Shown piece after piece: positions 1-60,556 of a stretch of 64,000 nt of DNA. Under the pieces are notes generated by a model. It did no database searches and was not told the origin of the DNA. It saw nothing but the letters and a program-made list of their open reading frames with translations. Position 1 is the first letter of the stretch; each line of letters begins with the position of its first letter. A program made the position numbers and the translations under genes. Source of the DNA: a virus (Duplodnaviria > Caudoviricetes); IMG/VR virus record IMGVR_UViG_3300034071_000801, positions 1 through 64,000 of that record; one strand, given 5' to 3'.

Positions 1-3000
1 GCTAAACTTGCAACGCTATCTGAACAAGATAGAAAGTTTGTAAAAGATCTTGATATAATTCTTCCTCATAACACTATGGATGTTGGTGGTAGACAATATG
101 TTTCTTTATCTGGAACTAGAACAGCTGATGGTAAACAACTTATTTCAAATAGACTATCTGGATATGCTACAGCATTTGTGGATATTGCTAACAATCCATT
201 TATTACTAAGGTTGTAAAAAGTGATGTTGTGGTGTCTACATTTATGTTTTTAGAATCTATTGGTGCAGGAAACACAGGAGTGATCTTTTTAAATCAACCT
301 ATTATAGAAAAGTATTTAGAATACTTAGATAACACAGGTTCTAAAAGTGTAACTAATAAAGGTAATATAGGATATATTAAAAGTTTATTTCCTACAACAG
401 GGAAAGCATTAGAAGATGTTGAGATATCTGTAGAGCAACTTCTTGACAATATAGAAAACTATGGTAAAACTGGTATGTTTGATGCTCTTAAAAATGCTGA
501 ACAACATTTAATATTAGATGAGTTTATCAAATATAAATTATTAGCAGATCAATTGTTTAGCTATACACAAGCTACAAACTATGACACAACAAGATTTGGT
601 AGTTCAGATGCTCTTCTTAAAAAAGAATGGGGAACATTCAATGCTAGTAATTTTAATCTAATATCTAATGTAAATGATGTATTAGGTAATACATTTATTG
701 GTGAACAAGCTGAACTTTTATCAAAATCATTTGGATCTTTTGGTGCAATTATGAAATCAGAACTTCCTGAAATCAAAGCATACACATTATCTACATTGAA
801 AAGATATGCTACAAGAAAATATATGTCTGCTGATGACTATGAGAAGATAGCTAACTTAATCAAAAATTCTTTCATAGATTATGTTATACAGAATAACACA
901 GTTATGACAGATATGATTAAACCTTTACTTGTAGATTCTGAAACAGCAGTGGTTGATCAATTAGAGAAAGCTAAACAAAAATATCCTTCTATACAAATAC
1001 TACAAGATCTTAGTCCTGTACTAGGAAATAGAGATGGATCTGCTAAATCTATAGAATTAAAAGCAAATGTGAAAGATGCATATAGTGAAAACTTATATGT
1101 AGGTATGATGAGAGAGTTAAGAGATGCTAGTCCAGAACTTAATGATCTTTATAATAACATTGTTAATGTAGCTATTCTACAAGGAACAACACAATCTGCT
1201 ATATCTATAAGAAACATTATTCCTGTAGAAGATTATGCAGCTAAGATAGCTCCTATTATAAATCAACTTAAAGCTAACAGTAGTCTTAAAGCTTTTGAGA
1301 ATGGAATATTTGAAAGAAACAATTTTGCAAACAAAGATGTATTCACTGAGTTTAGACCATATGTACACACTCCTCAACCTAATCCTGATACAGGAGAGTA
1401 TAATGAGAAGAGTGTTAGAATGAATCCTAATACAGGAGAAGATGAATTAATTTACTTCTTACCAAGTTTCAAAGCAATGAGAGGTGTTACACAAACATCA
1501 AGAAAATTAATTGTATTAAATGATGAGTTTAATTCATTTCAGTTATCTTCTGATTTCTTAAAGATCCCTAAAGTGGTAACTAATAAAGAGGGATTAAAAA
1601 TTAATATTACAACTGGTCTTGAGGTAACTAAAAAAGATTATGCATTGATGAAACAAAAAGGTTCACAAGATCTTTATAATGCATACTATTATAAAAAAGT
1701 GTACACTAATGAAGTGGATGAATTTAATAATCCTATTCCATTAAAAACATATAATCAAAAAATTAAAGCTTACGAATACTATTATAAACAAATCAATGTA
1801 TATGGTGATGGTAATAGAGCTGTTGAAATAAACAAAGATTTCAAACCTTCTGTTATTGATAATGGAGGTATGCCAATTCAAGAAGAATTGAAAGATGCTG
1901 ATATTGTTAATGCATTTTCTGCACAGGGTCAAGAAGAAGTTGCTCCTACATCTTTACCAACAGAAACACCTATAGAAGTTGTAACTACTCCTACACAAAA
2001 ATTGAGTGGAGAAAAAATAAATATCTACGCAGGTACAGGAGAGAATGCTGAATTAAGTAATTTTGCTGTTAGACCTTTTAAAGCTACAGATGATACACAA
2101 ATAGGTGGAGCTTATATAGATGCTACAGGTAAAGACATTACTTTCAAAACTGTTGAAGGATATTATCAAGCTAGTAAACTTATATATTCAACTTCTTCTG
2201 AGTATTGGACAGAAAAAATGGATTTAACAAATAAAGGAATAAAACTCATAGAACAATTTGCAAATGCTACTGGAGCACAAGCTAAATCTTTAGGTAGAAC
2301 TGTAAAAGGTTTAGACATTAAAGATTGGGATGATATTTCTTCTGCTGTAATGTATGATGGTTTAAAAGATTCTTTTGAACAAAATCCAGAAGCTCTTAAA
2401 AAACTTCTTAATACAGGTAATGCAGAATTAACACATACACAAGATAAAGGTAAATGGGGTAAAGAGTTTCCAAGAAGACTTATGGAAGTAAGAGAAGAAC
2501 TTAGACCTACACAAATTGCAACTAAAGAAGTGAGACCTAGATTTGAAGTGTATGGAAATGAAGTTCAATATACTGAAGATGGTTCAACTGCTCAAGAATA
2601 TAATAGTCCTGAAGAAGCTCAAGAAGGATTGAAAGAATGGTTAGCGTTAGATAATCAATCTATAACTGAAGAAGTTTCTGTAGAAGAACAAACTAATAAG
2701 CCTTCTATATTTGATTTAAGAAATGTACAAATTGGTTATACATCAGGACAAACAAAAGCATTAGAAGAAATATCTAAGTTAATTGATAGAAAAGCTGATG
2801 GTCATTATTTACTAGCTGGATATGCTGGTACAGGAAAAACAACAATAGCTGAGAACATAGCAAAATATGCTAAACAAGCAGGGAAAGCTATACTAGTTAT
2901 TGCTCCTACAAACAAAGCAGCTAAGGTGTTAAATGATAAACTAAAATCTACTGGTGTTGGATCTGTAGCTTCTACTATACATAAGACAATATATGGTGAA

Positions 3001-4236
3001 CCTAATGATCAAGGAGAGTGGGAGAAAAGTAGTGACATTAAAAACTCTGTAATCATAATAGATGAATCTTCTATGATTGAGAAATCATTAATGGCAGATT
3101 TACTAGACTCAACTAAGAATAAAAACAATGTGCTCATCTTTATGGGAGATAGTTATCAGTTACAACCTGTAGGTGAAGACTCTGGTTTATTCCAAGGTAA
3201 AGTGCAAGAAGTTAAAAATGACCAAACAGAGTTAACAGAAGTTAAACGTCAGTCTTTAGATAGTAGTATTTTAAAAGTGGCTACAGTTATTAGAAATGAT
3301 AAAAAATCATATGTTCCTACAGAATCTACAGAAGATTTTAAAGTGACAAAATCTAAAAATGAATTTGTTAGTAACTTTAAAGAAGCTGTAAAAGCTAATG
3401 AAGATGTAGCAATGATTGTTGCTACAAATAATGAAAGACTGTTGATGAATAAATTAGCAAGAAATGCTAAGTTTGGTGAAGCTTCTGAAAATGTATTAAA
3501 CCCAGGTGAAACAATTATCTCTATAGCTAACTCTTCTGATTATTCAAATTCTGAAGTGTTTAATGCAAAAGATGTAAGAGGTGAACCAACTAAATTTGAT
3601 ATAACATTTACAGATAACTTTGGAAAATCTAGTAAGTATGATGTATATTTAGCATTTGTAGTTAACAATGAAGGAGTAGAAGTACCTACACTATTCTTAC
3701 CTAATGTAGATAAACCAAGTATATATCATGCACAAATATTAAAAGCTGCTAGAGAGAGTAGTCCAGGACTATATAATGCTTTAAATAACTGGATAATGAA
3801 TACTAAGAAAGGACCAAAACTAAGTCCAGCTATATCAATTGCTACTTATGGATATGCTATTACAGCACATAAGTCACAAGGATCACAATGGAAAAAAGTA
3901 TTTGTTAATCAAAACTATGTAGCTGATTCATGGGATGCTGCAAGATGGTTCTATACAGCTATAACAAGAGCAAGTGATGAAGTGGAAGTTTTACCATCAT
4001 CATCTAATGTGCAGATATCTAATGCTGAAATAGACTCTAAATTAAATGCAATTGTACAAGAAGGTGTTGAAACATTTGATACAATAAAAGATTTTTCAAA
4101 TGATCAGAAGCAACAAATTTTAACTAACTTTGCTGCTAAACATAAAATGACAACTGCTCAAGCTAAATTATATATTGATAATGCTTTAGCTGAGAATAAA
4201 GAAGAAGTAATTAATAAACTAAAAGACTGTTACTAA
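1..4236 (+). CDS. Giant virion protein, 5'-partial; probably the C-terminal part of a crAss-like virion RNA polymerase, with NADAR and Dda/RecD-like SF1B helicase modules
   Basis: Frame is open from base 1. ISNRLSGYATAFVDIANNP resembles a crAss RNAP segment. NADAR motifs LSNF..TVEGYYQASK..AKSLGR..FEQNP..LLNTG..LMEVRE lie at ~2014-2503. Helicase motifs GYAGTGKTT, IIDESSM, GDSYQLQPV and YAITAHKSQGSQW lie at ~2740-3990. Confidence 0.65.
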   Translation, partial: AKLATLSEQDRKFVKDLDIILPHNTMDVGGRQYVSLSGTRTADGKQLISNRLSGYATAFVDIANNPFITKVVKSDVVVSTFMFLESIGAGNTGVIFLNQPIIEKYLEYLDNTGSKSVTNKGNIGYIKSLFPTTGKALEDVEISVEQLLDNIENYGKTGMFDALKNAEQHLILDEFIKYKLLADQLFSYTQATNYDTTRFGSSDALLKKEWGTFNASNFNLISNVNDVLGNTFIGEQAELLSKSFGSFGAIMKSELPEIKAYTLSTLKRYATRKYMSADDYEKIANLIKNSFIDYVIQNNTVMTDMIKPLLVDSETAVVDQLEKAKQKYPSIQILQDLSPVLGNRDGSAKSIELKANVKDAYSENLYVGMMRELRDASPELNDLYNNIVNVAILQGTTQSAISIRNIIPVEDYAAKIAPIINQLKANSSLKAFENGIFERNNFANKDVFTEFRPYVHTPQPNPDTGEYNEKSVRMNPNTGEDELIYFLPSFKAMRGVTQTSRKLIVLNDEFNSFQLSSDFLKIPKVVTNKEGLKINITTGLEVTKKDYALMKQKGSQDLYNAYYYKKVYTNEVDEFNNPIPLKTYNQKIKAYEYYYKQINVYGDGNRAVEINKDFKPSVIDNGGMPIQEELKDADIVNAFSAQGQEEVAPTSLPTETPIEVVTTPTQKLSGEKINIYAGTGENAELSNFAVRPFKATDDTQIGGAYIDATGKDITFKTVEGYYQASKLIYSTSSEYWTEKMDLTNKGIKLIEQFANATGAQAKSLGRTVKGLDIKDWDDISSAVMYDGLKDSFEQNPEALKKLLNTGNAELTHTQDKGKWGKEFPRRLMEVREELRPTQIATKEVRPRFEVYGNEVQYTEDGSTAQEYNSPEEAQEGLKEWLALDNQSITEEVSVEEQTNKPSIFDLRNVQIGYTSGQTKALEEISKLIDRKADGHYLLAGYAGTGKTTIAENIAKYAKQAGKAILVIAPTNKAAKVLNDKLKSTGVGSVASTIHKTIYGEPNDQGEWEKSSDIKNSVIIIDESSMIEKSLMADLLDSTKNKNNVLIFMGDSYQLQPVGEDSGLFQGKVQEVKNDQTELTEVKRQSLDSSILKVATVIRNDKKSYVPTESTEDFKVTKSKNEFVSNFKEAVKANEDVAMIVATNNERLLMNKLARNAKFGEASENVLNPGETIISIANSSDYSNSEVFNAKDVRGEPTKFDITFTDNFGKSSKYDVYLAFVVNNEGVEVPTLFLPNVDKPSIYHAQILKAARESSPGLYNALNNWIMNTKKGPKLSPAISIATYGYAITAHKSQGSQWKKVFVNQNYVADSWDAARWFYTAITRASDEVEVLPSSSNVQISNAEIDSKLNAIVQEGVETFDTIKDFSNDQKQQILTNFAAKHKMTTAQAKLYIDNALAENKEEVINKLKDCY

Positions 4237-7200
4237 TGGCTTGTATAAATCCAAATGATCCAATTTATAAAGAAATTTTAGCTAGAGTGGGTAATCCTAT
4301 TCTAGCTGAGATTGAATATGATAAACAAATTGCTAAAGAAACTGCTGATCAAAAAGCTTCTCCAAAACTAGTTAGTCTAATGAAAGAATTCATTAAACAA
4401 ATTGGTGTTGATTACAAAATTGTTAGCAGTGTAGTTGTTGATGGTAAAAAAGTAGATGCTAATGGTGTTGCTTTAATCATGCAAAAACTTATTCAAGTGG
4501 TAGAAGGACAAGAGGATGTTGCTCTTCCTGAAGAAGCTATGCACTTTGCTGTTGCTATCATTAAGCAAACTAATCCAGCTCTGTATCAGCAATTGTTAAA
4601 AGAAATAAATGGTAATCCTATATTAGATGAAGTGGTTGCTACATATGGTAATGATCCAGCATATCAGAAAGATGGTAAGCGTGATTATCTAAAACTTAAA
4701 GAAGAAGCAATTGCTAAAGTTTTAGTTAATAGATTAGAAAATACTATTGCTAAAAATTGGTGGGATAAGATTGTTGATTATCTTAAAGGATTATTTTTTA
4801 CTAAAAGTGGATTTGATCAAGCTTCTATGGATGTCTTATCTGGAAAGATGGCTACTGTAGAAGATATAGATGTATCTAAAGAAAGTGCATATTTCCAATT
4901 ATCTAGTGGAGAAAAAGTATTTAATGATTTGCTAAATACCTCTAATGAAATTACATTAGATGAAGGTGTTTATCAATTAGGTGATGTTAAAGCTGTACGA
5001 AGAGTATCTGATTATGTAAAAGACTTTTATGATTCAGTATTTAAAAATCCTGCTGATACAGAATTTCAAAAAACTTTAAATGAACTTAAAGGAGAAAAAG
5101 GAACTGATGGTCATGCTGATATTGAACATGCACAACTTGTATTTGTAGATCCTACTACAGGATTGCTTAGAGAAGAAAAATTAGATGATTCTAGTTATGT
5201 ATCTAAGTTAAATCCAAAGGATGCAAGAATGTACAACATGCTTAAAGATAATCTAGAAGAAAGACTTAATTCATTCCCTGAAGGAACTAGATTTATGTCT
5301 GAGGTGAGAATCTTTGATAAGAAAAGAAAAATTGCAGGTACTGTAGATTTTCTAGCTATTGAAAAAGATGGTAATGTAAATATTCTTGACTGGAAGTTCA
5401 TGGATCTTGATGCAGATAAATATGAAGATGTTCCTTGGTATAAAGTGAGAGCTTGGGATATTCAAATGAAGAAATATAAAGACATTATATCAACTAATTA
5501 TAATGTTAAGAATGAAAACTTTAAACAGACTAGAATGATTCCTATTCTAGCTAAGTATTCAAAAGCTGATTATGAAAAAGAAATTCTTCCAAGACTTATA
5601 GATGTAAAAATAGGAGATGTTGTAGTGGAGAATATTGAGGAAGACTTTCTACTTCCTGTTGGTATTACAGAAGAGAAGACAGGAAATAAAAAGATTGATT
5701 CATTAATACAAAAACTTAATTCTGTTTATAAAAAACTTTCAGAAGAAAGTGTTAGTGAGTCTGAGAAATCTACTAAAGCTGAACAATTAAATGCTTTATA
5801 CAAAGCTATTAGACATTTACAGATTAAAGGAAATGTTGTTCCATTAATCAATCAAGCTAAGATATTGAACAAACAAGTGTCAATGTTATTAAATAGATAT
5901 GCTACTGAATTTGAAGGTAAGGATCCATCAGAAGTAGACCAAGATAAAGTGAATGCTTTTGCAGGAATGATTAGAATTCATTTAGAATCATTGGCACCTT
6001 ATTTAGATCTTAAACAACTTAGATTTTTATTGAATGAAGATACAGAAGAAAACAATAAACTTAAAGATGAATTAAGAAAAACAGTAGAGAAGGTGGAAGA
6101 TTATATTTCTGATCTAGAAGATTTAGATGAAACCTTCGGAGAAAAGTTTAATAGTACTAGCTCAACACCTGAAAAAGTGGTGAAAGGAATTACTAAATGG
6201 TTTTCTAGTGTTGCTACAATCCAAGTGGCAAATATTCAATCTTTATATAAATTAGCAAACAAAGCATTCTTTTTATCCAATCAAGAAAATTTAGAAGAAG
6301 TAAAAAAATTAAACACTTTAAAAGATAACTATGATAAATGGGCAGCTTCTAAAGGATTAAGTAAACGTGATTATTTTAATATTCTTACAAAGAAAGATAA
6401 GAATGAATTAATAGATGAGTTTGATAAAAAATTCTTCGATGATTTAAAATCTAAAATTGCTAAAAAAGATTTCAATTGGATATATGATAACATCAATAAA
6501 GATGCATATAGACAATATGTAGAAAATAAAATTGAAGAAGAGACAGATAGAATACTATCAAGACCAAGAGTTGGAACAGAAGAAGAAGTTAAAGCTAGTA
6601 TAAAAAGAGATTTAGCTAAAGTGTATAATAGATATAACCTTGAAAATAAAAATTCAAATGGTTGGTTATTATATGATGATGTTAAGAAGTTTCCAAAAAG
6701 AGATATTTGGGAATCTGCAGAATGGAAAGAACTTAATAAAACTGAGAATGCTCCAGCTAAAGCTTTTTATAATTACATTGTAGAAAGAAATGTATATTAT
6801 CAAAAAATAGAATATCTAAATGGAAAAGCTGCAAGAAAGTTTCTTCCTTGGATGAGACAAGGATTTGTAGAAGGACTTGTATTTGATGGTAAATCTAGAG
6901 GCGTAGGAGAAGCTTTTCTTAGAAATATATCTATGGATGAATCTGAAGCAGGATTTGGACAAACAGATCCTGTTACAGGAGAATTAATTAACACTATTCC
7001 TAAGTATTTTACAAAAGATCTTGGAGAAGGATATTCAACAGATCTTTTTAAAACAATGGCAATGTACAATGAGTATGCTATTAAGTTTAAAAATCTAAAA
7101 GATATTGAGGAAAGAGCTTTACAGTTATTAAGAGCTGAAAGAAATAAGAAATCTATAATGAGTTCTACATTTGGTAAATTGATTAAAGAGAATGGAGAAT

Positions 7201-52145: not shown

Positions 52146-55100
52146 TAGAACTCTCTCTTAGGTGCTGGTTCTGTAATTTGATATACACCATGTGAACTAG
52201 ATAGTCTTAAAAGAATATGAAGCTGTTCAGCTTCTAAATAGTTTATCTCTTTCTTTGAGTTAATACCAATTAGCTCTATACCATTACCTGTGTCTACTAG
52301 CTGCATAGCAACTGTTTTTCTTACATTCTCAGCCCATTCAATATAATCACTAAAATATAGTGTATGAACTGTAGCTTGTGGTGTAGCATCTAGTTTATGA
52401 TAATCATATTCATGTTTACCATTGATATAGATTTCTTCTCTGTATAACACATCACTTGTGTTATCAATTACATCTTGTATTTCTTTCTTTAATGTTGCCA
52501 TGTTATTGTTTGTTTACTAAGTTTAACGCTATTTGATGTCCTTCAAGAGCATCTTCATAAGATGTATATCTATCTTGATATTGGTCATGTTCTCCTCCAA
52601 ATATCATAGTTTCCCATAATACAGGAATATCACTATCCCAAGCATGATCAAGACCAAGAAACACTGTTGATATAAATATATCACCAATATGTTCTTGTTT
52701 TACTGCTTTTCTCTCTGGATTCTTCTCTAACCATTCTGCTGCTTCCATAATTGAAACAGATTTTACAGGTTTATTGTTCTCGTCTAATATATACCAAGCC
52801 ATAACTATTGAAATAAAGCTGTAGGTGCTCCTACGTTATACATTAACATTACATAAAATCTTATACAATGAATATTGATATCATCTGCTCTACCAAATGC
52901 TTCAGCAAGATCATTATTAACCACTGCTTGAGCAAAACTACCACCTGGATAACCTACACTCCATTTAGTACATAATATACTTGTACCAATATCAATAATG
53001 TGATCTTTTTGTGAAATTTTTAGAAATAAAGCTAAATACTTATCTGCATATTTGTCAAAATAGTCAGAAACCACTGCTCTGACTATTTCTTGTTGTTGTT
53101 CTGGATTCATAATTCTGATGTTAATTTTTTAATGTTATTAAGGATTTGTTCAATTGTTAATTCTTCTTCTACTACTAGATGTTTAAGTGATTCAGGATAT
53201 GGATAATTATAACTTCTACCATCAGGAAATCTTATTTGAGTTACATTATGATCTTGAAATGTTATTTTTCCAACAACACCTTCATATGGTTGCATATGAG
53301 GCATATAAGTTGGATAACCACTAAACTTAAAGCCTTTCATTTCTTTTCCTATAAGTGAATCTTTATCTTCCATGATTTATATTTTTGACGTTAGCATCTT
53401 CATAGTGTTTAGAAGATCATCAATTGTTAAATTCTCAAGCTCTTTTGCTTCTAATTGCTCAATGATACCTGCTACAGGATAATGTGATGTCTCTTTTTTA
53501 CCAATTGGTAAAGTGATTTCTACAAGAGCAAATTGTGGATAAGAAGAATTTATATTTAGAACAATAGCATTTTTACCACATAATTGTTTATGAGTATTTG
53601 AGTATGATAGTAAGTTTTCACTTTTAAACTCAAAACATTCTATCTCTTTACCGATTATATCTTTAGCTTCCATAATTAATATCCTGCTAATTTAGATATG
53701 GCACCTTCATTACTCAATACATAAGCAAGATCGTCTTCTTGTTTAGGTGTAAGAGTTTTGATTGTAGAGATCAAATTGATTCTACTGTAGGTGATGTCTT
53801 CACCATATAAGTTTACAAGATTGCTTCCAATCTCTTTTATCTTATTGTAATTAAATACTGTTACAGGTTCACCTTGGTCATCCTGCCATTTTCCGTTGAT
53901 TATACGCATAATTTCTATTTTATATTTGTTAAGGGATAAGAGTTTAAGATGGAATCTTTATCAATTACTTTTTTTACAAGCATTGATGAATCATTTCCTC
54001 TATATGTTTTTTTAGTTTTAGCTTTTTCAACAGCTTCTTTCAAAGCTGCTTCTACATGTAGTTTTGCAAATTCAATCAACGCTAAGTGATGATTAACAGG
54101 ACTATGTGTATGTTTGAATTTCATAAAAAATTCTTCTGCTGTTGGTATCATAACTTTTAGTCTTTTTGATTTTCTATAACTTTCTCTATAATTTCATCAT
54201 ATATGGCATCACTAATCAAATCAATGATCTCACTGCCATCTACTTGTACTGATTCTAATTCAAACTCAGCATCGTATCCTGGATAACCTTCCATATTACC
54301 ATCATACATTTCTCTTGGTTCTTCTGGATGATATGTTCCACTCACTGTTACATATACACCACCTACGGTGATACCTATTTCTATTTCTTTACTCATTTGT
54401 TTTTTAAATTATACCATTTTTGATTCTCTTTTTGTATCTCATAACGTTTAACATATTCCATTTTAACATTTGTTTCAACAGATACATCACGTATAACAGC
54501 TCTTAATAGTTTCTTGATGTTGTCTACACCTCCAAATCTTTCTATTTCATTTGGAGATACTTTTATATCAAGTTGTCTTGATTTTACATCTGAAGGTTTC
54601 ATCTTATTTCTTTTTAAATTGTTCAAACCATTGGTTAAAATCTTCATTACTTAATGTTTCATATTTAGAAAGTATTCTAACTACATCTAATTGACTATAA
54701 CTTCTTTCTTGTTGCTTATTATGTCCATATTTCTCAATAAGTCTTATTGCTGAAGCATCTGATTTTGCAAGTAATAAAAATTTTATATCTTCCAACAACG
54801 CTTCTTCAAGAGTGGTTTCTTGTTTAGGTTTCTTTTCTAGTGATTCCATTAGTTTAAGTTTACATTTTTGACATTGTAATGCATCTATAAATCCTGTAGA
54901 GATAATAGTTCTACATGTATGACAGAGAGTTGCCCCTCTGCCATTATTAAACTTGTGTATAGGTTTCATATTATTTGTGAAATTCAATTAAATATCCTTC
55001 GAATATAATAAGTCTAAGACATGTATCATCATCAAATAGTTGTAATGTAATACTCACACCATCTGTATCAACACATTCAATCATTTGAAATCCATCTCCA

Positions 55101-55649
55101 TTTACTGTTTTACCATCTTTGGCACCAGTAATTTGATGTAGCCTTTTAATCTTACCACTGGTGTAGTAGATTACAATGTCTTTCACATTATCAGCATTGA
55201 ATACAACAGTGATTTCTGATTGTACCCATGGTTGTAATACACCTTTCTCTTTAGTAATATAAGAGGTGTATTTCTTAACAAATGTATCTTGTGCAGATAC
55301 TGTTATGCTCAATGTTAGTAGAGCTCCTAATAATAGTTTTTTCATAATCTATTTATTTACAGATTTAGGTGTACACACATGTCCATCACTCCATTTGATT
55401 CCTGGAGGTGGTGTTGTTTCTGATGAGCTGTATTTTGTACCACACTCACTACATTCAAATTTATTCATCTGATGCTAAAAATAATGTTATTATAAAAGAT
55501 ATAAACATATAACCTCTAACTACTCCCCATTCAATATTCACTGGAAGAATGCTCCATGTTATAAAACATGCTATTAGATATATAAATAAACAAATAGCCA
55601 ATGGTAGTGTTATAAAAAATCCTAAATAAATACTACAAAACTTTTTCAT
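52145..55649 (-). other. Array of small early-type hypothetical genes (52145-52501, 52503-52802, 52805-53110, 53107-53373, 53377-53673, 53676-53909, 53915-54151, 54157-54396, 54393-~54602, 54604-~54969, 54971-~55327, 55461-55649)
   Basis: Tightly packed, co-oriented ORFs of 60-130 aa. 53107 and 53377 are paralogues; 54971 has a signal peptide. Confidence 0.7.
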
Positions 55650-55714
55650 AATTTCTTTTGTTAATGATTAAACAATTAGGCTCCTGCTATTACACAAGAG
55701 CCCTTTTGCCCTCC

Positions 55715-55861
55715 TTAATAACCCAACTGATGAAGTTGGTTTATATTGGCTTCTACAATATACACACCCTGTGATATTGTACATGCAAACGCTATACTCA
55801 TTGCGAATGCTAATTGTCTGAACTGATAAAACTCAGTTGGTTTCATTTGAATTGTTTTCAT
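55715..55861 (-). CDS. Small protein (48 aa), not in the ORF track
   Basis: MKTIQMKPTEFYQFRQLAFAMSIAFACTISQGVYIVEANINQLHQLGY, preceded by the TCCTTAATAA leader motif. Confidence 0.55.
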   Translation of the reverse strand: MKTIQMKPTEFYQFRQLAFAMSIAFACTISQGVYIVEANINQLHQLGY

Positions 55862-55891
55862 TGTTATTTATTATTAAGGATTAATACATAA

Positions 55892-55922
55892 TAAGAAAAG
55901 CCCCTATGTTAATAGAGGCTTT
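55892..55922 (-). terminator. Terminator closing the RNA operon
   Basis: Minus strand reads AAGCCTCTAT-TAAC-ATAGGGGCTT-TTCTT. Confidence 0.7.
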
Positions 55923-55925
55923 AAT

Positions 55926-56078
55926 AGGACCTTCTCCCTTGGGAGATGTCAATTGTTGAGATTAGGAACATTTCTTCCCTATAAGTACTCAACTCCTTCT
56001 CTGCGTGGAAAGGACTTAACATTCGTGATGTGCAAACTATCCAATGTCTGTTACTGTGCTATTTGCGTCAAGTAACTG
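55926..56078 (-). ncRNA. Candidate ~150-nt structured RNA
   Basis: No ORF; several consecutive stems between the tRNA-like element and the terminator. Confidence 0.4.
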
Positions 56079-56081
56079 CTG

Positions 56082-56150
56082 TGATTGAGACAGGATTCGA
56101 ACCTGTGTGTAAGGATATATGTCCATCGCATACCATTCTGCCACTCAATC
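56082..56150 (-). tRNA. Degenerate tRNA with undetermined anticodon
   Basis: Acceptor stem GATTGAG/CTCAATC, T arm ACAGG-TTCGAAT-CCTGT, D loop with GG; the anticodon loop is only 6 nt (CATATA). Confidence 0.75.
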
Positions 56151-56171
56151 TAGTGGAGGTGGGGAGATTCG

Positions 56172-56873
56172 CATTTTGTTAATAACTTGTTGTCACATTA
56201 TTTGCATATGTCTAGGACATGTTGTAGATTTACACCATATCTTAAATTCTTTATCATGACACTACAATACCTTTCTGGATTCTTTGATGCTGATGGTTCA
56301 ATATCAATGAGTAAAAGTTCTAAAAACGATACTTACAAATGTATCAAAATAGATTTTACTAATACTTACATAACAATTCTTGAAGAGATTCAAAAATACT
56401 TGTTAAATGAGCATGGTATTAAAACACATATATCAAAAAAAGCAATTAGAAAAGAAAACCATAATATTGGTTATTCTTTATCTTGTAATAGTAATCAAAC
56501 TTGTTTGAAACTTTGTAAACTTATAGATTCTCATCATCCTAAGAAGTTACATCGTATAAATACAATTTTGAAATATCATGATGCAGTTACCATAAGAAAT
56601 GGTAAATACACAGATAAACAAGCTACAAGAAGATTAGCCTACGAGAGACTATTCTTTCTTCCTACATTTCTGTAGGGATCGGACTATATCATCATCTGTT
56701 CTAGATGTTGCTTACTGTGGGCTCACCGTAGTGTCCCTAGTCTCTGAACCTTCTCACTTCTTCCAGTGAGCTTGGCTGCTGATTGGCATATTACCCTCGC
56801 AGGTGTAACTTAGCGTTCCAGCAATTCAAGCAATTTTTAATTATACATCCCTGTATAATGAGTCCAATTTCCA
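56172..56873 (-). mobile_element. Group I intron (702 nt) in the tmRNA T-loop
   Basis: P1 GAGUU/GACUC with U.G at the splice site; terminal G at 56172. P AATTGCTGGAA (56826-56816), Q AATCAGCAGC (56784-56775), R GTTCAGAGACTAG (56749-56737), S GATATAGTCC (56690-56681). Confidence 0.93.
56256..56675 (+). CDS. Single-motif LAGLIDADG homing endonuclease, antisense to its host intron
   Basis: QYLSGFFDADGSI. Start moved to ATG 56256; lies in the post-S (P9) region of the intron. Confidence 0.88.
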   Translation: MTLQYLSGFFDADGSISMSKSSKNDTYKCIKIDFTNTYITILEEIQKYLLNEHGIKTHISKKAIRKENHNIGYSLSCNSNQTCLKLCKLIDSHHPKKLHRINTILKYHDAVTIRNGKYTDKQATRRLAYERLFFLPTFL

Positions 56874-57186
56874 AACTCCCGTGTTGCTTACTTCAAAAAT
56901 ACAATTTTATACAGCTTATTTAGGGTCAAGCTAGGCTTAACGTTCCCACCACTCTATTTAATCTAATAGAGAAATCTTGAGGTAATTTAGGCTGCTAAAC
57001 CAACGATTACATCCTCATTCAATAATGAGAATACTTTGTTCATGTTAGCTTCGATTTGTGCGTTTGCTCCTAGAGCCACTACACGACTTGTGTTTTTGCC
57101 ATTTAAAATAATTCACCTTAGTTTACAGTTATCTCTCTGGCTGAATTGTATAATCTATAATAACCAGTCAATTCCAGTCACCCCCA

Positions 57187-57775
57187 TTTCCCTCGTGTGA
57201 GGGCATGTATCAATTGTTGTGTTGTTGACCAATGATCAACTTGTATTAGCACCCATCATTATAGCCTTGCAAGTTAGCCCTCGCTGCTTACTTAATGATT
57301 AGGGTCACGTAGTTAATAATACAGTTTGCAGACTGTTAAAGTATAAAATTACAAAAATTACACTTATTAACTACTTGCTTGGAACTCATTTGTGTTGTGA
57401 CAAAGTGGCTTAAAAGCTTAGTCCAATCTCTTTCCTTTCTCAAGGGAACAACACATCTACCATTACTGATAGTATCTTTATGTAATGTTTAGTATTTACA
57501 CTGTATTTAAGCACAGGATTATTTCATTACAAAGGTATTCAATGTTTAGCCTGTTTGAGAGTTTATTCATTGCAACTCACAAGTGTTCCCTAACATCAGA
57601 GACCAATCCTACAAGTTTAATGTGTGTGGATGTAGGACCACATTCTTTTGTATCACTCTAGTGAGTTTAAAACTCATAATATGCATAATATAGGTAAGTT
57701 CAATGATACGCAGCACATACATTGACTATTTAAACTGCTATGTGGCGTTTATAGTCCCCAGTGATTATACAATAT
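57187..57775 (-). ncRNA. Candidate large (~590 nt) structured non-coding RNA
   Basis: No ORF of 60 aa or more on either strand; more than ten stems, GNRA tetraloops on the minus strand, its own promoter, and it abuts the tmRNA 5' end. Confidence 0.65.
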
Positions 57776-57780
57776 CCCTG

Positions 57781-57812
57781 CAAATATAATCTACAGGGAG
57801 TAACAAAACAAA
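57781..57812 (-). promoter_or_regulatory. Promoter TTTG-N20-TATATTTG driving the RNA operon
   Basis: Full Bacteroidota consensus; the -7 element sits inside the CCCTG..CAGGG inverted repeat. Confidence 0.7.
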
Positions 57813-57824
57813 TAATTAATCAAA

Positions 57825-59216
57825 TTATAATTTAATTTGTTGTTCACCTACACCTTTAGCATAGCTGAACACTTCCAATTCTTCTGTCACCTTAATCTGT
57901 TTACCATCTGTCTCAAGACAAAGATCTCTCAACTCATCACTAAATTGCATTAATGATATGGCATTCACTTTATAAGGAAACTTCTCTGTGTTGATATCAT
58001 CTTGACCATCATTGATGATTAAGATCTCTGGCTTCTCTTCTGATAAATCAATATCAAGATTGTGAAGCTTACGATCAGCTATCTCTTTAGCTACATAATT
58101 AACCATATCACCAATTTCTGTTCCTCCACCATTAGGATCATTAGAGAATGTTTGCCAAAATGCAATTACATCTTCTCTATCCTTTATGTGTTTGAACTCT
58201 AAGTCTTCTGGATTATGTACAAAATAACTAAAGAACACTTCAGCTTCACCTCTCATAACATACTTGAATCTGTCTATTAATATAGCATTTACCCAAATCT
58301 GTTTCTCTTCTTCATTCATACTACCAGAATAATCTAATAGAATGATAATCTTCTGAATCTGCTCTTTTCTATCAACAGGAACATTCACTGTTAAGTCTTT
58401 AGTTAAGAATTTAGTTCTGAAATTAGGAAACATCTTCTGATATAATGGCATCATGTGTATTTGAGCATAATCTCTCATAATCATTGTTGCATATTGATCA
58501 GAATTAGCCACTATCTTCTCAGATATCTCTTTCTCCACCTTAAACTCATTACCAAACTTACCAACAAGAGATATATGATTCATAATCTCCATCTTCTTAT
58601 CCTTGCTTAGTTCATTTAGATCTAATTGTTCATTGATATCTGGATCAGAATAAAGACTTCTATCAAAATCAAATGTTTTTGTTGGATCCACTTCATCATC
58701 TTCATCATTATCATCTTTTTCTTTACCAGATGATTCTTTAAGCTTCAGATAGATAGCAATAGCTTGTTCAAGAGGTGTAAATCCTGGAACATATTGTTCA
58801 TATACAGCATCAAGCAAAGGTTTCTTCTTTAGATATTCTCCTTTGTCTTCATCAGATAAATTATCTACATCTTTATACTTATCAGCTATATATTCTGTTT
58901 CATCAATCATCTTGAAATAGCACACACGTGCTAACTCTTTGATCAAATCAATAGATGCTTGCTTCTTAACACCTCTCACCTTAGCTTTGATGTCTTTAGC
59001 ACTTGGTGTTAGATAATTGACTGGATCTTTAACAAATAGATCTTCATCATTATCTTCATATGATACAACAAATGAGAAATTAGACCAAGAACTCTTGGAC
59101 CATCCACTACCACCATATTTACTTTTCCAGCCTCCACTACTCTTCTTAGGAGTATAGGAAGGGGCATAATAATCACCGTAGTAATCATCATACCCATTAT
59201 CCCATAAACTTGCCAT
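57825..59216 (-). CDS. VWA (MIDAS) domain protein, partner of the MoxR ATPase
   Basis: LLDYSGSM, GGGTEI and LIINDGQD. Confidence 0.85.
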   Translation of the reverse strand: MASLWDNGYDDYYGDYYAPSYTPKKSSGGWKSKYGGSGWSKSSWSNFSFVVSYEDNDEDLFVKDPVNYLTPSAKDIKAKVRGVKKQASIDLIKELARVCYFKMIDETEYIADKYKDVDNLSDEDKGEYLKKKPLLDAVYEQYVPGFTPLEQAIAIYLKLKESSGKEKDDNDEDDEVDPTKTFDFDRSLYSDPDINEQLDLNELSKDKKMEIMNHISLVGKFGNEFKVEKEISEKIVANSDQYATMIMRDYAQIHMMPLYQKMFPNFRTKFLTKDLTVNVPVDRKEQIQKIIILLDYSGSMNEEEKQIWVNAILIDRFKYVMRGEAEVFFSYFVHNPEDLEFKHIKDREDVIAFWQTFSNDPNGGGTEIGDMVNYVAKEIADRKLHNLDIDLSEEKPEILIINDGQDDINTEKFPYKVNAISLMQFSDELRDLCLETDGKQIKVTEELEVFSYAKGVGEQQIKL

Positions 59217-60556
59217 TATATGAATGAAGCAATTTGAAGGTTCTTAGCAAACTTATCCATAGCTTGTGTAGCAGCTTTCACTAATTGTGAATGTATTTGT
59301 GCAATATCATCACTCACTGCTAATCCTTTGATGTCTGTCAATTGTTTAGTAAGATCACCAAGAGCATCTCTGTACATCTTCTCATCATCTCTAGATACCA
59401 ATGGTAAATGAGTTAGAGTTTCAATACTGAATGTAAGAGATGCAGATAAATCTCTGAACTTAATTGTAGCCTCAAACTTCTTAATAGCTTCAGCTATCAA
59501 TGATGGTTTCTTAGAGAACTCAGCAATAAAGCTTAATGATTCTGGTCCACATTGGTCATACACTTGATATGCTGTTACAGCTACACGTGGACTAATTGTA
59601 ATACCATTCTTTGCATACTCTTGTAACAAATAAGGAATCACTGGATCCACATTGTCTACACCAAACTTACTTTCTAGTAATTTGTTGTAGCTGATCTCTG
59701 TGTAATTATCCCAGATAACATTCAATTCAAGAGGAAATCTTTCCATCAATGCTTTCAATGACATATTCTTTGAGAATTCATCACGAGTTCTATTAGTACA
59801 ACAGATGATGAATTTAGTCTCAATAGGAAATATCTGTGTACCATTTCTAAATGTACCACTTGATAATATATCCTTTAATTGCTCTAAGATGAAATCAGGA
59901 GCATCAAACATCTCTTCGAATATAACAAAAGGATGATTCATAAATGAATTCTCTACAAGATATTCTATTTTACCTGTCTTCTCAAACATAGGTATATCAA
60001 GACCACCAAACAATCTATCTGTTGTCATACCTGTACCCATTGTAATAACATAAGGTTCAATACCTTTTGATTTTAGAAAATCAAGTGTCATTTCTGATTT
60101 ACCATGTCCTCCTGGACCATATAAAACTACATTTTTACCTGTTTGAAACCCTACATTAAGGACATTTACTGTTTTGTCCATAAATACGAACTTCTCTGCT
60201 ACTGGATTTGCTTTTGCTGATTTCTTTACTTGTGTTGCCATTGTTTTTTCTTTTGTTATTAAGGAATTGTTTAATTTAATTTGTTCTAATACTTCTTCTA
60301 TGTTTACTTCTTCTATTTCTTTGATGATACAATTGTTTGATCGGAACACCCAACCATTTATTTCAAATGTATCATCTCTCTCAATGTATTTAATGAATTT
60401 ATCAGGAACCTCTTGTTCCATATAATCATTCATATCACCACCTTCAGCCCATTCATCTGGTATATCATATTCATCATTCCAAAGACCATCATCTTTAAAC
60501 TCTTGTTCACTTTTAAATCTATATTTACTCATAGCTTTGATATAAAAGAGAGCCAT
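59216..60556 (-). CDS. MoxR/RavA-like AAA+ ATPase with an N-terminal extension (probable internal start at 60241)
   Basis: LYGPGGHGKS, IFEEMFDA, CTN and ALMERFP. Confidence 0.85.
   Translation of the reverse strand: MALFYIKAMSKYRFKSEQEFKDDGLWNDEYDIPDEWAEGGDMNDYMEQEVPDKFIKYIERDDTFEINGWVFRSNNCIIKEIEEVNIEEVLEQIKLNNSLITKEKTMATQVKKSAKANPVAEKFVFMDKTVNVLNVGFQTGKNVVLYGPGGHGKSEMTLDFLKSKGIEPYVITMGTGMTTDRLFGGLDIPMFEKTGKIEYLVENSFMNHPFVIFEEMFDAPDFILEQLKDILSSGTFRNGTQIFPIETKFIICCTNRTRDEFSKNMSLKALMERFPLELNVIWDNYTEISYNKLLESKFGVDNVDPVIPYLLQEYAKNGITISPRVAVTAYQVYDQCGPESLSFIAEFSKKPSLIAEAIKKFEATIKFRDLSASLTFSIETLTHLPLVSRDDEKMYRDALGDLTKQLTDIKGLAVSDDIAQIHSQLVKAATQAMDKFAKNLQIASFI

What the first reader, a model, noticed from the sequence alone, without database searches (positions are those of the whole stretch)
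57187..57775. Unannotated ~590-nt highly structured RNA with its own promoter, directly upstream of the tmRNA
Seen: a long stretch with no ORF of 60 aa or more, in an otherwise densely coding genome, starting right after a TTTG-N20-TATATTTG promoter and ending a few nt before tmRNA G1. Stems found by eye: 57309-57319/57364-57374 (11 bp perfect, enclosing a GCAA-capped stem), 57251-57261/57293-57305, 57391-57398/57448-57455, 57472-57487/57525-57538, 57607-57613/57631-57637, 57457-57472 (GUAA loop), 57432-57448 (GAGA loop), 57224-57240, 57190-57203, 57662-57676. There is also a long-range closure 57207-57212/57704-57709 and an alternative pairing GGGAACA/TGTTCCC (57590-57584 with 57450-57444). 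The GNRA loops read correctly on the minus strand. Known: large ornate phage RNAs (GOLLD, ROOL) lie next to tRNA genes and have no established function. Inference: this is a divergent member of such a class or a new class in Bacteroidota phages.
Basis: partly seen in the sequence, partly recalled or inferred. Interest (0 to 1): 0.8.

Follow-up and report, generated by a model that had tools for sequence, protein, structure and literature searches.

The report
New conserved phage RNA beside tmRNA
Inside the flagged stretch lies a folded RNA gene of about 310 bases that many phage genomes share, that matches no catalogued RNA family, and whose job is still unknown.

Summary
The 589-nt stretch is real non-coding DNA between a Bacteroidota-type promoter and tmRNA G1 (57186, minus strand). 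It is not one RNA. It is a mosaic leader whose length in relatives runs from 112 to 2695 nt.

Its central 311 nt (57554-57244, minus strand) belong to a widespread phage RNA class. I found 127 distinct core copies in the IMG/VR loci fetched. Full-length copies are 238-506 nt.

Eight helices are separated by near-invariant loops and junctions. Covariation is strong: in the core, 17 of 17 nested pairs show compensatory changes, and 0 of 500 shuffles reach the observed score.

No Rfam 15 family matches, including GOLLD, ROOL, group I intron and RNase P.

A cultured member sits in Cellulophaga phage phi14:2, in one of two intergenic regions reported as abundant, persistent "long non-coding RNAs" of undetermined function.

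The MFE z-score is not significant.

The window copy has a private 2-nt change in the most conserved junction. Function is unknown.

Verdict: a new structured phage ncRNA family, shorter than claimed.

The parts
57781..57812 (-). Bacteroidota-type promoter of the tmRNA operon: TTTG (57812-57809), N20, TATATTTG (57788-57781). An inverted repeat CCCTG...CAGGG (57799-57775) encloses the -7 box.
   Evidence: The sequence is read. The first ~30 nt after the VWA gene stop are conserved in most relatives. The hairpin is listed. That this is the Bacteroidota consensus is recalled, not tested.
57644..57775 (-). Block A: promoter-proximal leader with a small hairpin (57676-57662). It is shared only with close relatives.
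   Evidence: BLAST and nhmmer place lead 1-157 in L002, L003, L014, L016, L010, L018, L023 and L006.
57555..57643 (-). Block B: a separate small module with two hairpins. In other phages it lies downstream of the tmRNA or tRNA, or upstream of the RNA.
   Evidence: Lead 158-247 matches L018 5172-5258, L023 1756-1839 and L013 8860-8971, all 3' of their tmRNA. The same motif precedes the RNA in L014, L040 and L048.
57244..57554 (-). The conserved structured RNA, 311 nt.
- P1 57552-57550/57535-57533, with invariant loop L1 UAAACAUUGA at 57548-57539.
- P2 57533-57525/57487-57476.
- P3 57472-57457 (GUAA loop).
- P4 57455-57449/57397-57391, enclosing P5 57448-57432 (loop UGAGAA at 57442-57437) and the variable P6.
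- Junction J 57390-57378.
- P7 57377-57364/57319-57306.
- P8 57305-57293/57261-57251.
- Tail GCUAA 57250-57246.
   Evidence: Alignments A1-A3; RNAalifold; pair counts; coordinates; nhmmer E = 2.5e-26, the only copy in the 111-kb genome.
57379..57384 (-). Private variant UUCCAA in place of the consensus UUCUCA inside junction J. It breaks 2 of 6 pairs of the proposed L5:J pseudoknot.
   Evidence: Only 1 of 97 distinct copies carries GTTCCAAGC; 85 of 97 carry GTTCTCAGCAAGTAG.
57187..57243 (-). Block D: conserved pre-tmRNA leader with hairpins 57240-57224 and 57203-57190. It ends 4 nt before tmRNA G1.
   Evidence: Lead 547-614 matches directly upstream of the tmRNA in L002, L009, L010, L012, L017, L018, L020 and L011.
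56153..57186 (-). Neighbouring tmRNA gene, which sets the 3' context. Exon 1 is 57186-56874. The group I intron is 56873-56172 (ribozyme core 56883-56660; antisense LAGLIDADG ORF 56187-56675 on the + strand). Exon 2 is 56171-56153.
   Evidence: Rfam RF00028 at 94.8 bits; Pfam LAGLIDADG_3 and LAGLIDADG_1; exon mapping against the intact L014 tmRNA.

Best explanation
The flagged stretch is the leader of the phage's tmRNA operon, and several independent modules have been inserted into it. The central 311 nt (57554 to 57244, minus strand) are one copy of a stand-alone, conserved, structured non-coding RNA gene that occurs in many phage genomes.

Shown:
- The class has eight helices, two GNRA-type hairpin loops and near-invariant single-stranded elements: loop L1 UAAACAUUGA, loop L5 UGAGAA, junction GUUCUCAGCAAGUAG and tail GCUAA.
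- The helices covary.
- When tmRNA or tRNA genes are near, they are always on the same strand.
- No terminator-like site lies between this RNA and the tmRNA in the window.
- The region holding the phi14:2 homologue is reported as abundantly and persistently transcribed on the RNA's strand.

Inferred:
- The RNA is made from the promoter at 57812-57781 as part of one precursor: leader, RNA, intron-bearing tmRNA, tRNA-like element.
- It is released by RNase P cleavage at tmRNA G1 plus trimming on its 3' side, and by an unknown endonuclease on its 5' side. In other phages the ends of flanking tRNAs, or a directly abutting promoter, would define the ends.
- It persists as a compact fold locked by an L5:J pseudoknot.

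Committed guess on function (about 35%): it is a stable trans-acting RNA that binds a conserved partner of the tRNA/tmRNA-translation sphere through the invariant L1 loop and the L5/J core. It is not a cis-regulator.

The window's copy is intact in every helix. It carries a private 2-nt change in the invariant junction, so it may be weakened, or it may be a variant that escapes the homing endonucleases that target this site in relatives.
For: Distribution:
- The 20-mer from junction J occurs in 104 IMG/VR stretches.
- After de-duplication there are 80 full-length copies of 238-506 nt and 127 distinct cores.
- The window's own 111-kb genome holds one copy.

Covariation:
- Core alignment A2 (86 sequences): 95.7% of cells are paired against 77.0% in shuffles; 291 cells show changes on both sides against 66.3; the score is 0.460 against 0.116; 0 of 500 shuffles reach it; slid controls give 0.034-0.134. 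P3 has 6 of 6, P4 7 of 7 and P5 4 of 4 pairs with compensatory changes.
- 3' domain A3 (75 sequences): 90.7% paired against 86.7%; score 0.125 against 0.074; 0 of 500 shuffles.
- G-U wobbles (for example UG 35 and GU 9 at one P3 pair) fix the strand.
- Pseudoknot: 98.8% of cells are paired, with one compensatory C-G to U-A change (L177) and three wobble-only pairs.

Context:
- Of 127 cores, 18 have a tmRNA and 12 a tRNA within 700 nt. All 30 are on the same strand, and none has a tRNA or tmRNA gene only on the opposite strand.
- A tRNA 3' end lies upstream of the RNA in 8 of 82 copies; in several (L031, L074, L119, L194) it abuts the 5' end. A -7 box lies 5-7 nt upstream in 3 of 82.
- Intrinsic terminators follow the RNA in several loci.
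- No terminator-like site lies on the minus strand between 57775 and 55900.

Expression:
- phi14:2 carries the RNA at about 2911-3361 and its tmRNA at 4031-4500.
- The preprint 10.1101/2020.03.07.982082 (passages only) reports the g004-g005 and g005-g006 junctions as transcribed rightward, above most genes, from the first time point and without a later drop.
- Short contigs matching the core (57432-57485) are present in RNA libraries X9 and X3. This shows presence only.
Against: - MFE z-scores are not significant.
- The RNA is dispensable in this phage family. Of 22 tmRNA-bearing relatives, 12 have a full core hit (E of 9e-10 or better), L003 has only a 22-nt partial hit (E = 9e-4), and 9 have none in the fetched stretch.
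- The link to tmRNA is not general. 97 of 127 cores have no ARAGORN tRNA or tmRNA within 700 nt (27 of these have short flanks). Only 1 of 5 large RNA-bearing records has a tmRNA above the Rfam cut-off.
- Many copies sit 20-45 nt upstream of an ORF start, often one with a signal-peptide-like N-terminus. That fits a 5'-UTR role.
- The pseudoknot rests on a single compensatory event, and 4 of 86 sequences mismatch at one of its pairs.
- The window copy deviates in the invariant junction.
- No transcript ends were mapped for any copy.
- That g005 equals 3590-3910 in the preprint's numbering is my inference.
- No partner or activity is known.
Confidence: 0.6

Rival explanations
1. The class is a cis-acting leader, such as a riboswitch-like or processing/stability element, that controls whatever lies downstream. 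In this window that would be maturation or yield of the tmRNA.
For: Many copies end 20-45 nt before an ORF start, or a few nt before a tRNA or tmRNA. In the window there is no terminator before the tmRNA.
Against: The downstream partners are heterogeneous: tmRNA, tRNA, unrelated ORFs, or an intrinsic terminator directly after the RNA, as in L037, L100, L123, L146 and L192. No neighbouring protein family recurs outside the window's own phage family. Nine of 22 relatives make the tmRNA without it. The preprint describes persistent high abundance of the two phi14:2 intergenic transcripts, which fits a stable RNA better.
Confidence: 0.12
2. The window's copy is a decaying remnant. The locus is a dump for mobile insertions, and this copy, mutated in its invariant junction, no longer functions.
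For: The locus is a hot spot. The gap ranges from 112 to 2695 nt. There are a group I intron with a LAGLIDADG ORF and an extra tRNA-like insert relative to L014, and a 1080-nt cassette in L003 and L014. GTTCCAAGC is seen in 1 of 97 copies and breaks 2 of 6 pseudoknot pairs.
Against: All eight helices and the other invariant elements (L1, L5, P7, tail) are intact in the window copy. There are only two substitutions and no indels. The P8 variant it carries is compensated and shared with L004, L005 and L043.
Confidence: 0.12
3. The RNA is itself a self-splicing or otherwise mobile ribozyme: an unrecognised group I-like intron or a transposon RNA.
For: It shows presence/absence polymorphism. It has GNRA loops. 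HNH_3/NUMOD4 ORFs are inserted in it in some loci. A true group I intron lies next door.
Against: RF00028 does not hit it. Flanks differ completely between loci, so there is no conserved exon context. No P3/P7-type pseudoknot was found. No transposase, reverse transcriptase, IscB or TnpB gene recurs beside it. The HNH insertions bring an alternative 5' core of the same topology rather than intron parts, and Rfam finds no intron in the ORF-less L193 insert.
Confidence: 0.07
4. It is a very divergent GOLLD or ROOL RNA.
For: It shares their lifestyle: phage-borne, near tRNA-type genes, ornate, function unknown.
Against: cmscan reports no match to either family at E up to 10 over 55000-58500 or over the phi14:2 copy. 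None reaches gathering score in 24 related loci. Its size of 238-506 nt compares with about 580 and 800 nt (those sizes are recalled).
Confidence: 0.03
5. It is a protein-coding gene read under a reassigned stop codon.
For: Phages of Bacteroidota can recode stop codons (recalled).
Against: TAG=Q and table 4 open only 51-88 aa frames, nearly all on the antisense strand. Conservation follows helices with compensatory changes, not codons.
Confidence: 0.01

Closest known systems
The two unnamed 'long non-coding RNAs' of Cellulophaga phage phi14:2 (g004-g005 and g005-g006 junctions; preprint 10.1101/2020.03.07.982082)
   Same: The g004-g005 junction holds a true homologue of the window's RNA, with L1, L5, J, P7, P8 and the tail all present at about 2911-3361. 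The other junction holds the tmRNA. It is on the same strand as reported for the transcripts.
   Different: In the passages I saw, the paper reports only transcript abundance. It gives no structure, family or boundaries. The phi14:2 copy is about 450 nt with extra hairpins, and about 670 nt separate it from the tmRNA. I could not see the supplementary tables.
GOLLD and ROOL (large ornate phage-associated RNAs; Rfam)
   Same: They are phage-borne, often beside tRNA-type genes, multi-helix with GNRA loops, and of unknown function. So this works like the same kind of element.
   Different: There is no covariance-model match. This RNA is shorter and has a different set of conserved elements. Multimerisation was not tested.
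T4 stable RNAs C and D (species 1 and 2) in the tRNA cluster (recalled from memory, not checked here)
   Same: They are phage stable RNAs of unknown function, co-transcribed and co-processed with tRNAs.
   Different: They are much smaller. No sequence relation was tested.
Group I introns (RF00028)
   Same: Similar size range, GNRA loops, tolerance of endonuclease ORFs, and residence in tRNA/tmRNA loci. A true one splits the adjacent tmRNA.
   Different: There is no model hit, no conserved exon context, and no P3/P7 pseudoknot.
HEARO / IscB omega RNA
   Same: A structured RNA sometimes found next to an HNH ORF.
   Different: The ORFs are 131-176 aa of HNH_3 with or without NUMOD4, the homing type, not IscB. 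There is no Rfam hit. Most copies have no ORF beside them.

Membership tests
New class defined here (L1-loop / GUUCUCAGCAAGUAG RNA) | P1 hairpin with the invariant loop UAAACAUUGA | tested here: met
   Window 57552-57533, loop at 57548-57539. The loop was found with at most 1 error in 103 of 113 copies. The stems covary (AGG/CCU, AGC/GCU, ACC/GGU, GUCG/CGAC, CUC/GAG and others), although my crude stem script gives only a weak control (1 of 500).
New class defined here | P3 GNRA hairpin, and P4 enclosing P5 with the loop UGAGAA | tested here: met
   Window 57472-57391 is identical to the consensus. 17 of 17 pairs have compensatory changes across 86 sequences.
New class defined here | Invariant junction GUUCUCAGCAAGUAG | tested here: not met
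   The window has GUUCCAAGCAAGUAG (two substitutions), unique among 97 distinct copies. Every other defining feature is met, so I file it as a variant member.
New class defined here | P7 (GUAGUUAA/UUAACUAC), then GU, then P8 (ACCC.../...GGGU), then the tail GCUAA | tested here: met
   Window 57377-57246; pair counts.
GOLLD (Rfam) / ROOL (Rfam) | Match to the family covariance model | tested here: not met
   Neither appears among matches at E up to 10 nor at gathering score in 24 loci.
Group I intron (RF00028) | Model match; conserved exon context with a U before the 5' splice site and a terminal G | tested here: not met
   The only RF00028 hit is 56660-56883, in the tmRNA. Flanks of the RNA are unrelated between loci.
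Group I intron (RF00028) | Self-splicing activity | not testable with these tools
   Needs in vitro transcription.
RNase P RNA, 6S RNA, SRP RNA, Y RNA, HEARO (all Rfam) | Match to the family covariance model | tested here: not met
   None is listed at E up to 10 over the window region or the phi14:2 copy.
tmRNA (RF00023), for the neighbouring gene only | Homology to model-validated tmRNAs; acceptor stem with G3-U | tested here: met
   97% identity over 314 nt, plus the 19-nt exon 2, to the L014 tmRNA (RF00023 at 56.6 bits). The acceptor pairing was read.

The most novel reading that the evidence does not exclude
The class is a new functional RNA machine of phages. It could be a ribozyme, or an RNA that docks onto tRNA or tmRNA. 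Its two invariant loops, UUGAA in L1 and UGAGA in L5, have the U-N-N-R-A pattern of T-loops. Interdigitated T-loops grip tRNA elbows in RNase P, T-boxes and the ribosomal L1 stalk (recalled). Phages would then use it to redirect host tRNA/tmRNA processing or ribosome rescue during infection. Its junction would be essential enough to have become a homing site for HNH endonucleases.
Probability: 0.15. Interest if true: 0.9.

Novelty: categorically new. Interest (0 to 1): 0.75.

Why it matters
Large, ornate bacterial and phage RNAs with strong covariation are rare. Each known class (GOLLD, ROOL, OLE, raiA) has become a structural-biology target while its biology remains open.

This class is widespread in uncultured phages. 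It has unusually invariant single-stranded elements and is invaded by homing endonucleases at its most conserved site. Most importantly, it has a member in a culturable model, phi14:2 on Cellulophaga baltica. There a published time course already reports abundant, persistent transcription of the region that holds it.

That makes the function directly testable by mapping ends, deletion, pull-down and cryo-EM.

It also corrects annotation. In phi14:2 GenBank record KC821624 the region carries small "hypothetical protein" CDSs (removed in RefSeq NC_021806), and in this window an intron-split tmRNA goes uncalled.

Tried and rejected
- Alternative genetic codes (TAG=Q, table 4) gave only short ORFs, nearly all antisense.
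- Searching INPHARED phages with the window's own 614 nt gave no match. The VWA neighbour protein gave none either. A consensus-like copy (L005) was needed to find phi14:2.
- MFE z-scores are uninformative for this AT-rich RNA.
- Neighbour-gene clustering around 116 loci found no recurrent enzyme. The top clusters are the window family's own VWA, MoxR, SPFH and an unannotated 256-aa protein.
- I tested whether the ORF-less insertion at junction J in L193 is a group I intron. Rfam gave no hit. I read it instead as an alternative 5' core.
- Host breadth from GTDB genomes: 3 of 5 exact 20-mer hits (Dehalococcoidia, Flavobacteriaceae, Bathyarchaeia) are chance matches inside coding sequence. I withdrew them as evidence.
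- Genome-level link to tmRNA: only 1 of 5 large records has a tmRNA above the cut-off.
- My P1 stem-finding script was too crude to be decisive (mean stem 5.35 against 5.01; 1 of 500).
- A full-length covariance model was not built. The alignments exceed 400 columns and the model would probably exceed the calibration limit. R-scape is not available.
- Sequencing runs: all 24 listed runs held small shares (0.05-0.14). After laying X1, X3, X4 and X9, no contig spans the stretch, and parts without cover prove nothing. Contig depths over the conserved core sum relatives and cannot rank expression.
- Literature searches found no description of this family. The 10,006 candidate RNAs of PMC10690425 are listed only in supplements that I could not open, so the motif or part of it may be catalogued there.

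Full report
**1. The observation**

All local genes run on the minus strand. Between the stop of a VWA-like gene (57825-59216) and 55862 no ORF of 60 aa or more exists on the minus (gene) strand under table 11; the only one on either strand is the + strand LAGLIDADG ORF at 56187-56675 (162 aa). Within 57187-57775 the longest ORFs are 58 and 54 aa on the + strand. Reading TAG as Q or using table 4 opens only 51-88 aa frames, nearly all antisense.

The promoter-like TTTG-N20-TATATTTG is at 57812-57781.

Bases 57186-56874 align at 97% over 314 nt to the intact tmRNA of relative L014, and 56171-56153 align to its last 19 nt. Rfam calls RF00023 in 11 of 12 related loci searched. The window's gene is split in the T-loop by a 702-nt group I intron (RF00028, 94.8 bits). 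The intron carries an antisense LAGLIDADG ORF.

The folding energy of the 589 nt is not better than shuffles: z = -1.23 on the minus strand and -0.46 on the plus strand.

**2. The stretch is a mosaic**

The neighbouring VWA protein brought in 29 related IMG/VR loci. In the 22 loci with a detectable tmRNA, the distance from the VWA stop to tmRNA G1 runs from 112 to 2695 nt. In the window it is 638 nt.

BLAST and nhmmer cut the stretch into four blocks:
- Block A (57775-57644) is shared with close relatives.
- Block B (57643-57555) lies downstream of the tmRNA in L018, L023 and L013.
- A central block is present in some relatives and absent from others, for example L002 (94% protein identity) and L010.
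- Block D (57243-57187) is the conserved leader just before tmRNA G1.

L003 and L014 carry a 1080-nt cassette at the A/B border. It holds a DUF805b RNA motif, a 60-aa ORF and an SPFH/Band_7 protein. Contigs of RNA libraries X3 and X4 join 57187 directly to 57774. These are relatives that lack the whole stretch.

**3. The central block is a conserved structured RNA**

Aligning the copies upstream of the tmRNA showed invariant segments separated by helices of variable length.

A 20-mer from the most conserved junction occurs in 104 IMG/VR stretches. It occurs in 5 contigs of 185,579 GTDB species genomes. Three of those five are chance matches in coding sequence. Two are true copies, on contigs binned as Clostridium sp. 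MAGs.

Anchor-based extraction gave 80 distinct full-length copies of 238-506 nt. The window's copy is 57554-57244, 311 nt. A second scan, not selected on that junction, raised the set to 97 distinct copies. An nhmmer profile found 127 distinct cores.

The architecture, 5' to 3', is:
- P1, with the invariant loop UAAACAUUGA
- P2, optional and variable
- P3, with a GNRA loop
- P4, enclosing P5 (loop UGAGAA) and the variable P6
- junction ...GUUCUCAGCAAGUAG
- P7, then P8, each with variable inserts
- tail GCUAA

RNAalifold on 36 copies predicts 25 pairs, 15 of them with compensatory changes.

On 86 core sequences:
- 95.7% of cells are paired, against 77.0% in shuffles.
- 291 cells show a change on both sides, against 66.3.
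- The score is 0.460 against 0.116, reached by 0 of 500 shuffles. Slid controls give at most 0.134.
- All 17 nested pairs show compensatory changes.

The 3' domain (75 sequences) is more conserved but still exceeds the controls: score 0.125 against 0.074, 0 of 500 shuffles. G-U wobbles fix the strand as the window's minus strand.

A pseudoknot between the L5 loop (UGAGAA) and the junction (UUCUCA) is plausible. Of its cells, 98.8% are paired. There is one compensatory C-G to U-A change in L177 and three wobble-only pairs. Four of 86 sequences mismatch at one pair.

The core's MFE fold recovers these helices even though its z-score is only -0.80.

**4. What it is not**

No Rfam 15 family reaches its gathering score over the RNA in the window or in 24 related loci. 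At E up to 10, nothing relevant is listed for 55000-58500 or for the phi14:2 copy. That excludes GOLLD, ROOL, group I intron, RNase P, 6S and HEARO as far as covariance models can see.

Flanks differ completely between loci. No transposase, reverse transcriptase or nuclease gene recurs beside it.

**5. Context**

Of 127 distinct cores, 18 have a tmRNA downstream and 12 a tRNA within 700 nt. All 30 are on the same strand. The other 97 have neither by ARAGORN, and 27 of those have short flanks. ARAGORN misses odd or interrupted tRNAs, which Rfam does find next to some copies.

A tRNA 3' end lies upstream of the RNA in 8 of 82 copies, abutting it in several. A -7 box lies 5-7 nt upstream in 3 of 82. 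One of those is L108, where the same promoter as the window's is followed by RNA, tRNA-Tyr and tmRNA.

Downstream one finds a tmRNA or tRNA within a few nt, an intrinsic terminator, or an ORF start 20-45 nt away.

Only 1 of 5 large RNA-bearing records has a tmRNA above the cut-off, so the RNA is not tied to the tmRNA.

In the window's family, 12 of 22 tmRNA-bearing relatives have a full core hit, L003 has only a 22-nt partial hit (E = 9e-4), and 9 have none. The window's genome has one copy. No terminator-like site separates the RNA from the tmRNA.

**6. Expression**

The consensus-like L005 copy matched two INPHARED records, both of the cultured crAss-like Cellulophaga phage phi14:2. There the RNA spans about 2911-3361 on the + strand. 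It starts 7 nt after g004, under small CDSs that RefSeq later removed. The tmRNA is at 4031-4500.

The preprint 10.1101/2020.03.07.982082 (passages only) states three things about two long intergenic regions, the g004-g005 and g005-g006 junctions. [quoted passage not shown] That the first junction is the region holding this RNA, and the second the tmRNA, is my inference from the coordinates.

In RNA libraries X9 (freshwater) and X3 (marine), short contigs match the conserved core 57432-57485. This shows that such sequences are present in those libraries, nothing more.

**7. The window's copy**

Every helix and every other invariant element is intact. The junction reads GUUCCAAGC instead of GUUCUCAGC. 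This is unique among 97 copies and breaks 2 of 6 pseudoknot pairs.

In L003, L145, L195, L148, L212 and (without an ORF) L193, this same junction is the insertion site of a cassette. The cassette holds an HNH_3 ORF (with NUMOD4 in L148) plus an alternative compact 5' core with the same P3-P4-P5 topology and a UGAGA loop.

The window's variant could therefore be decay, or escape from such endonucleases. I cannot tell which.

**8. Mechanism and verdict**

Shown:
- It is a conserved, covarying, strand-specific RNA gene.
- It is co-oriented with tmRNA and tRNA genes wherever these are near.
- The region holding its phi14:2 homologue is reported as abundantly and persistently transcribed.

Inferred:
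- It is co-transcribed from the tmRNA promoter.
- It is released by RNase P at tmRNA G1 and by other nucleases.
- It acts in trans.

Function is unknown. I put about 35% on a stable trans-acting RNA that engages a conserved partner of the tRNA/tmRNA-translation sphere.

Three literature searches found no description of the family. Part of it may sit among the 10,006 candidates of PMC10690425, whose supplements I could not read.

Noticed in passing
window 56153-57186 (minus): The tmRNA gene is split in its T-loop (between GGGAGUU and CGAAUCUCCC) by a 702-nt group I intron (56873-56172). The intron's LAGLIDADG ORF (56187-56675) is encoded on the opposite strand. ARAGORN does not call the gene. 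The close relative L014 has the uninterrupted gene.
   Followed up: yes
window 56082-56150 (minus): A tRNA-like element (Rfam tRNA, 47.9 bits) lies about 2 nt after the tmRNA 3' end. Its anticodon loop is irregular (6 nt, or 8 nt if the closing pair opens). ARAGORN does not call it. It is an insertion relative to L014. ARAGORN reports 'tRNA-???' in relatives such as L004.
   Followed up: partly
L003 8827-9532; L145, L195, L148, L212, L193 (upstream of their GTTCTCAGC): A cassette of an HNH_3 (with or without NUMOD4) homing-type ORF plus an alternative compact 5' core (P3 with a GUAA loop, a 5-bp P4 that covaries AAUGG/CCAUU with AAAGG/CCUUU and CAUAG/CUAUG, and a loop UGUAUGAGAUAU) is inserted exactly in the invariant junction. 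The original 5' half is left stranded upstream. It looks like intron-less homing into an RNA gene.
   Followed up: partly
window 57555-57643; L018 5172-5258; L023 1756-1839; L013 8860-8971: Block B is an independent two-hairpin module. It sits downstream of the tmRNA or tRNA in some phages and directly upstream of the RNA in others (L014, L040, L048). Its role is unknown.
   Followed up: partly
L004, L005, L032, L053, L056, L081, L089, L132, L175, L189, L196 (the ~50 nt before the RNA): Another recurrent ~48-nt hairpin module (AGCUAAGCUGUGUAAAGC...GAAGCU) directly precedes the RNA in 11 of 82 copies. It may be an optional 5' extension.
   Followed up: no
L003 7574-8651; L014 5786 onward: A DUF805b RNA motif (Rfam, 36.7-38.3 bits) is followed by a 60-aa membrane-like ORF and a 281-aa SPFH/Band_7 lipoprotein-like gene. 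This cassette is inserted at the block A/B border of the window's leader.
   Followed up: partly
window 57775-57799 (minus): A conserved inverted repeat CCCTG(N)CAGGG encloses the -7 box of the tmRNA promoter. It is present in relatives L005, L009, L029 and L108. It could be an operator or the terminator of the upstream VWA gene.
   Followed up: no
L149 1-190; L137 after 1485; L061 after 4364: Tandem or partial second copies of the RNA follow directly after a first copy.
   Followed up: no
L193 3631-3729; L031 6148-6257; L003 10129-10239: tRNA hits of 99-111 nt beside the RNA or tmRNA. The L193 alignment shows a ~36-nt insertion in the anticodon region. These may be intron-bearing tRNAs, which ARAGORN does not call in L193, L031 or L003.
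   Followed up: no
window 57825-60556 (minus): A MoxR-type AAA ATPase (bpMoxR, AAA_5) and a weakly VWA-like 463-aa protein form a pair directly upstream of the tmRNA operon. The arrangement is conserved in the 29 relatives.
   Followed up: partly
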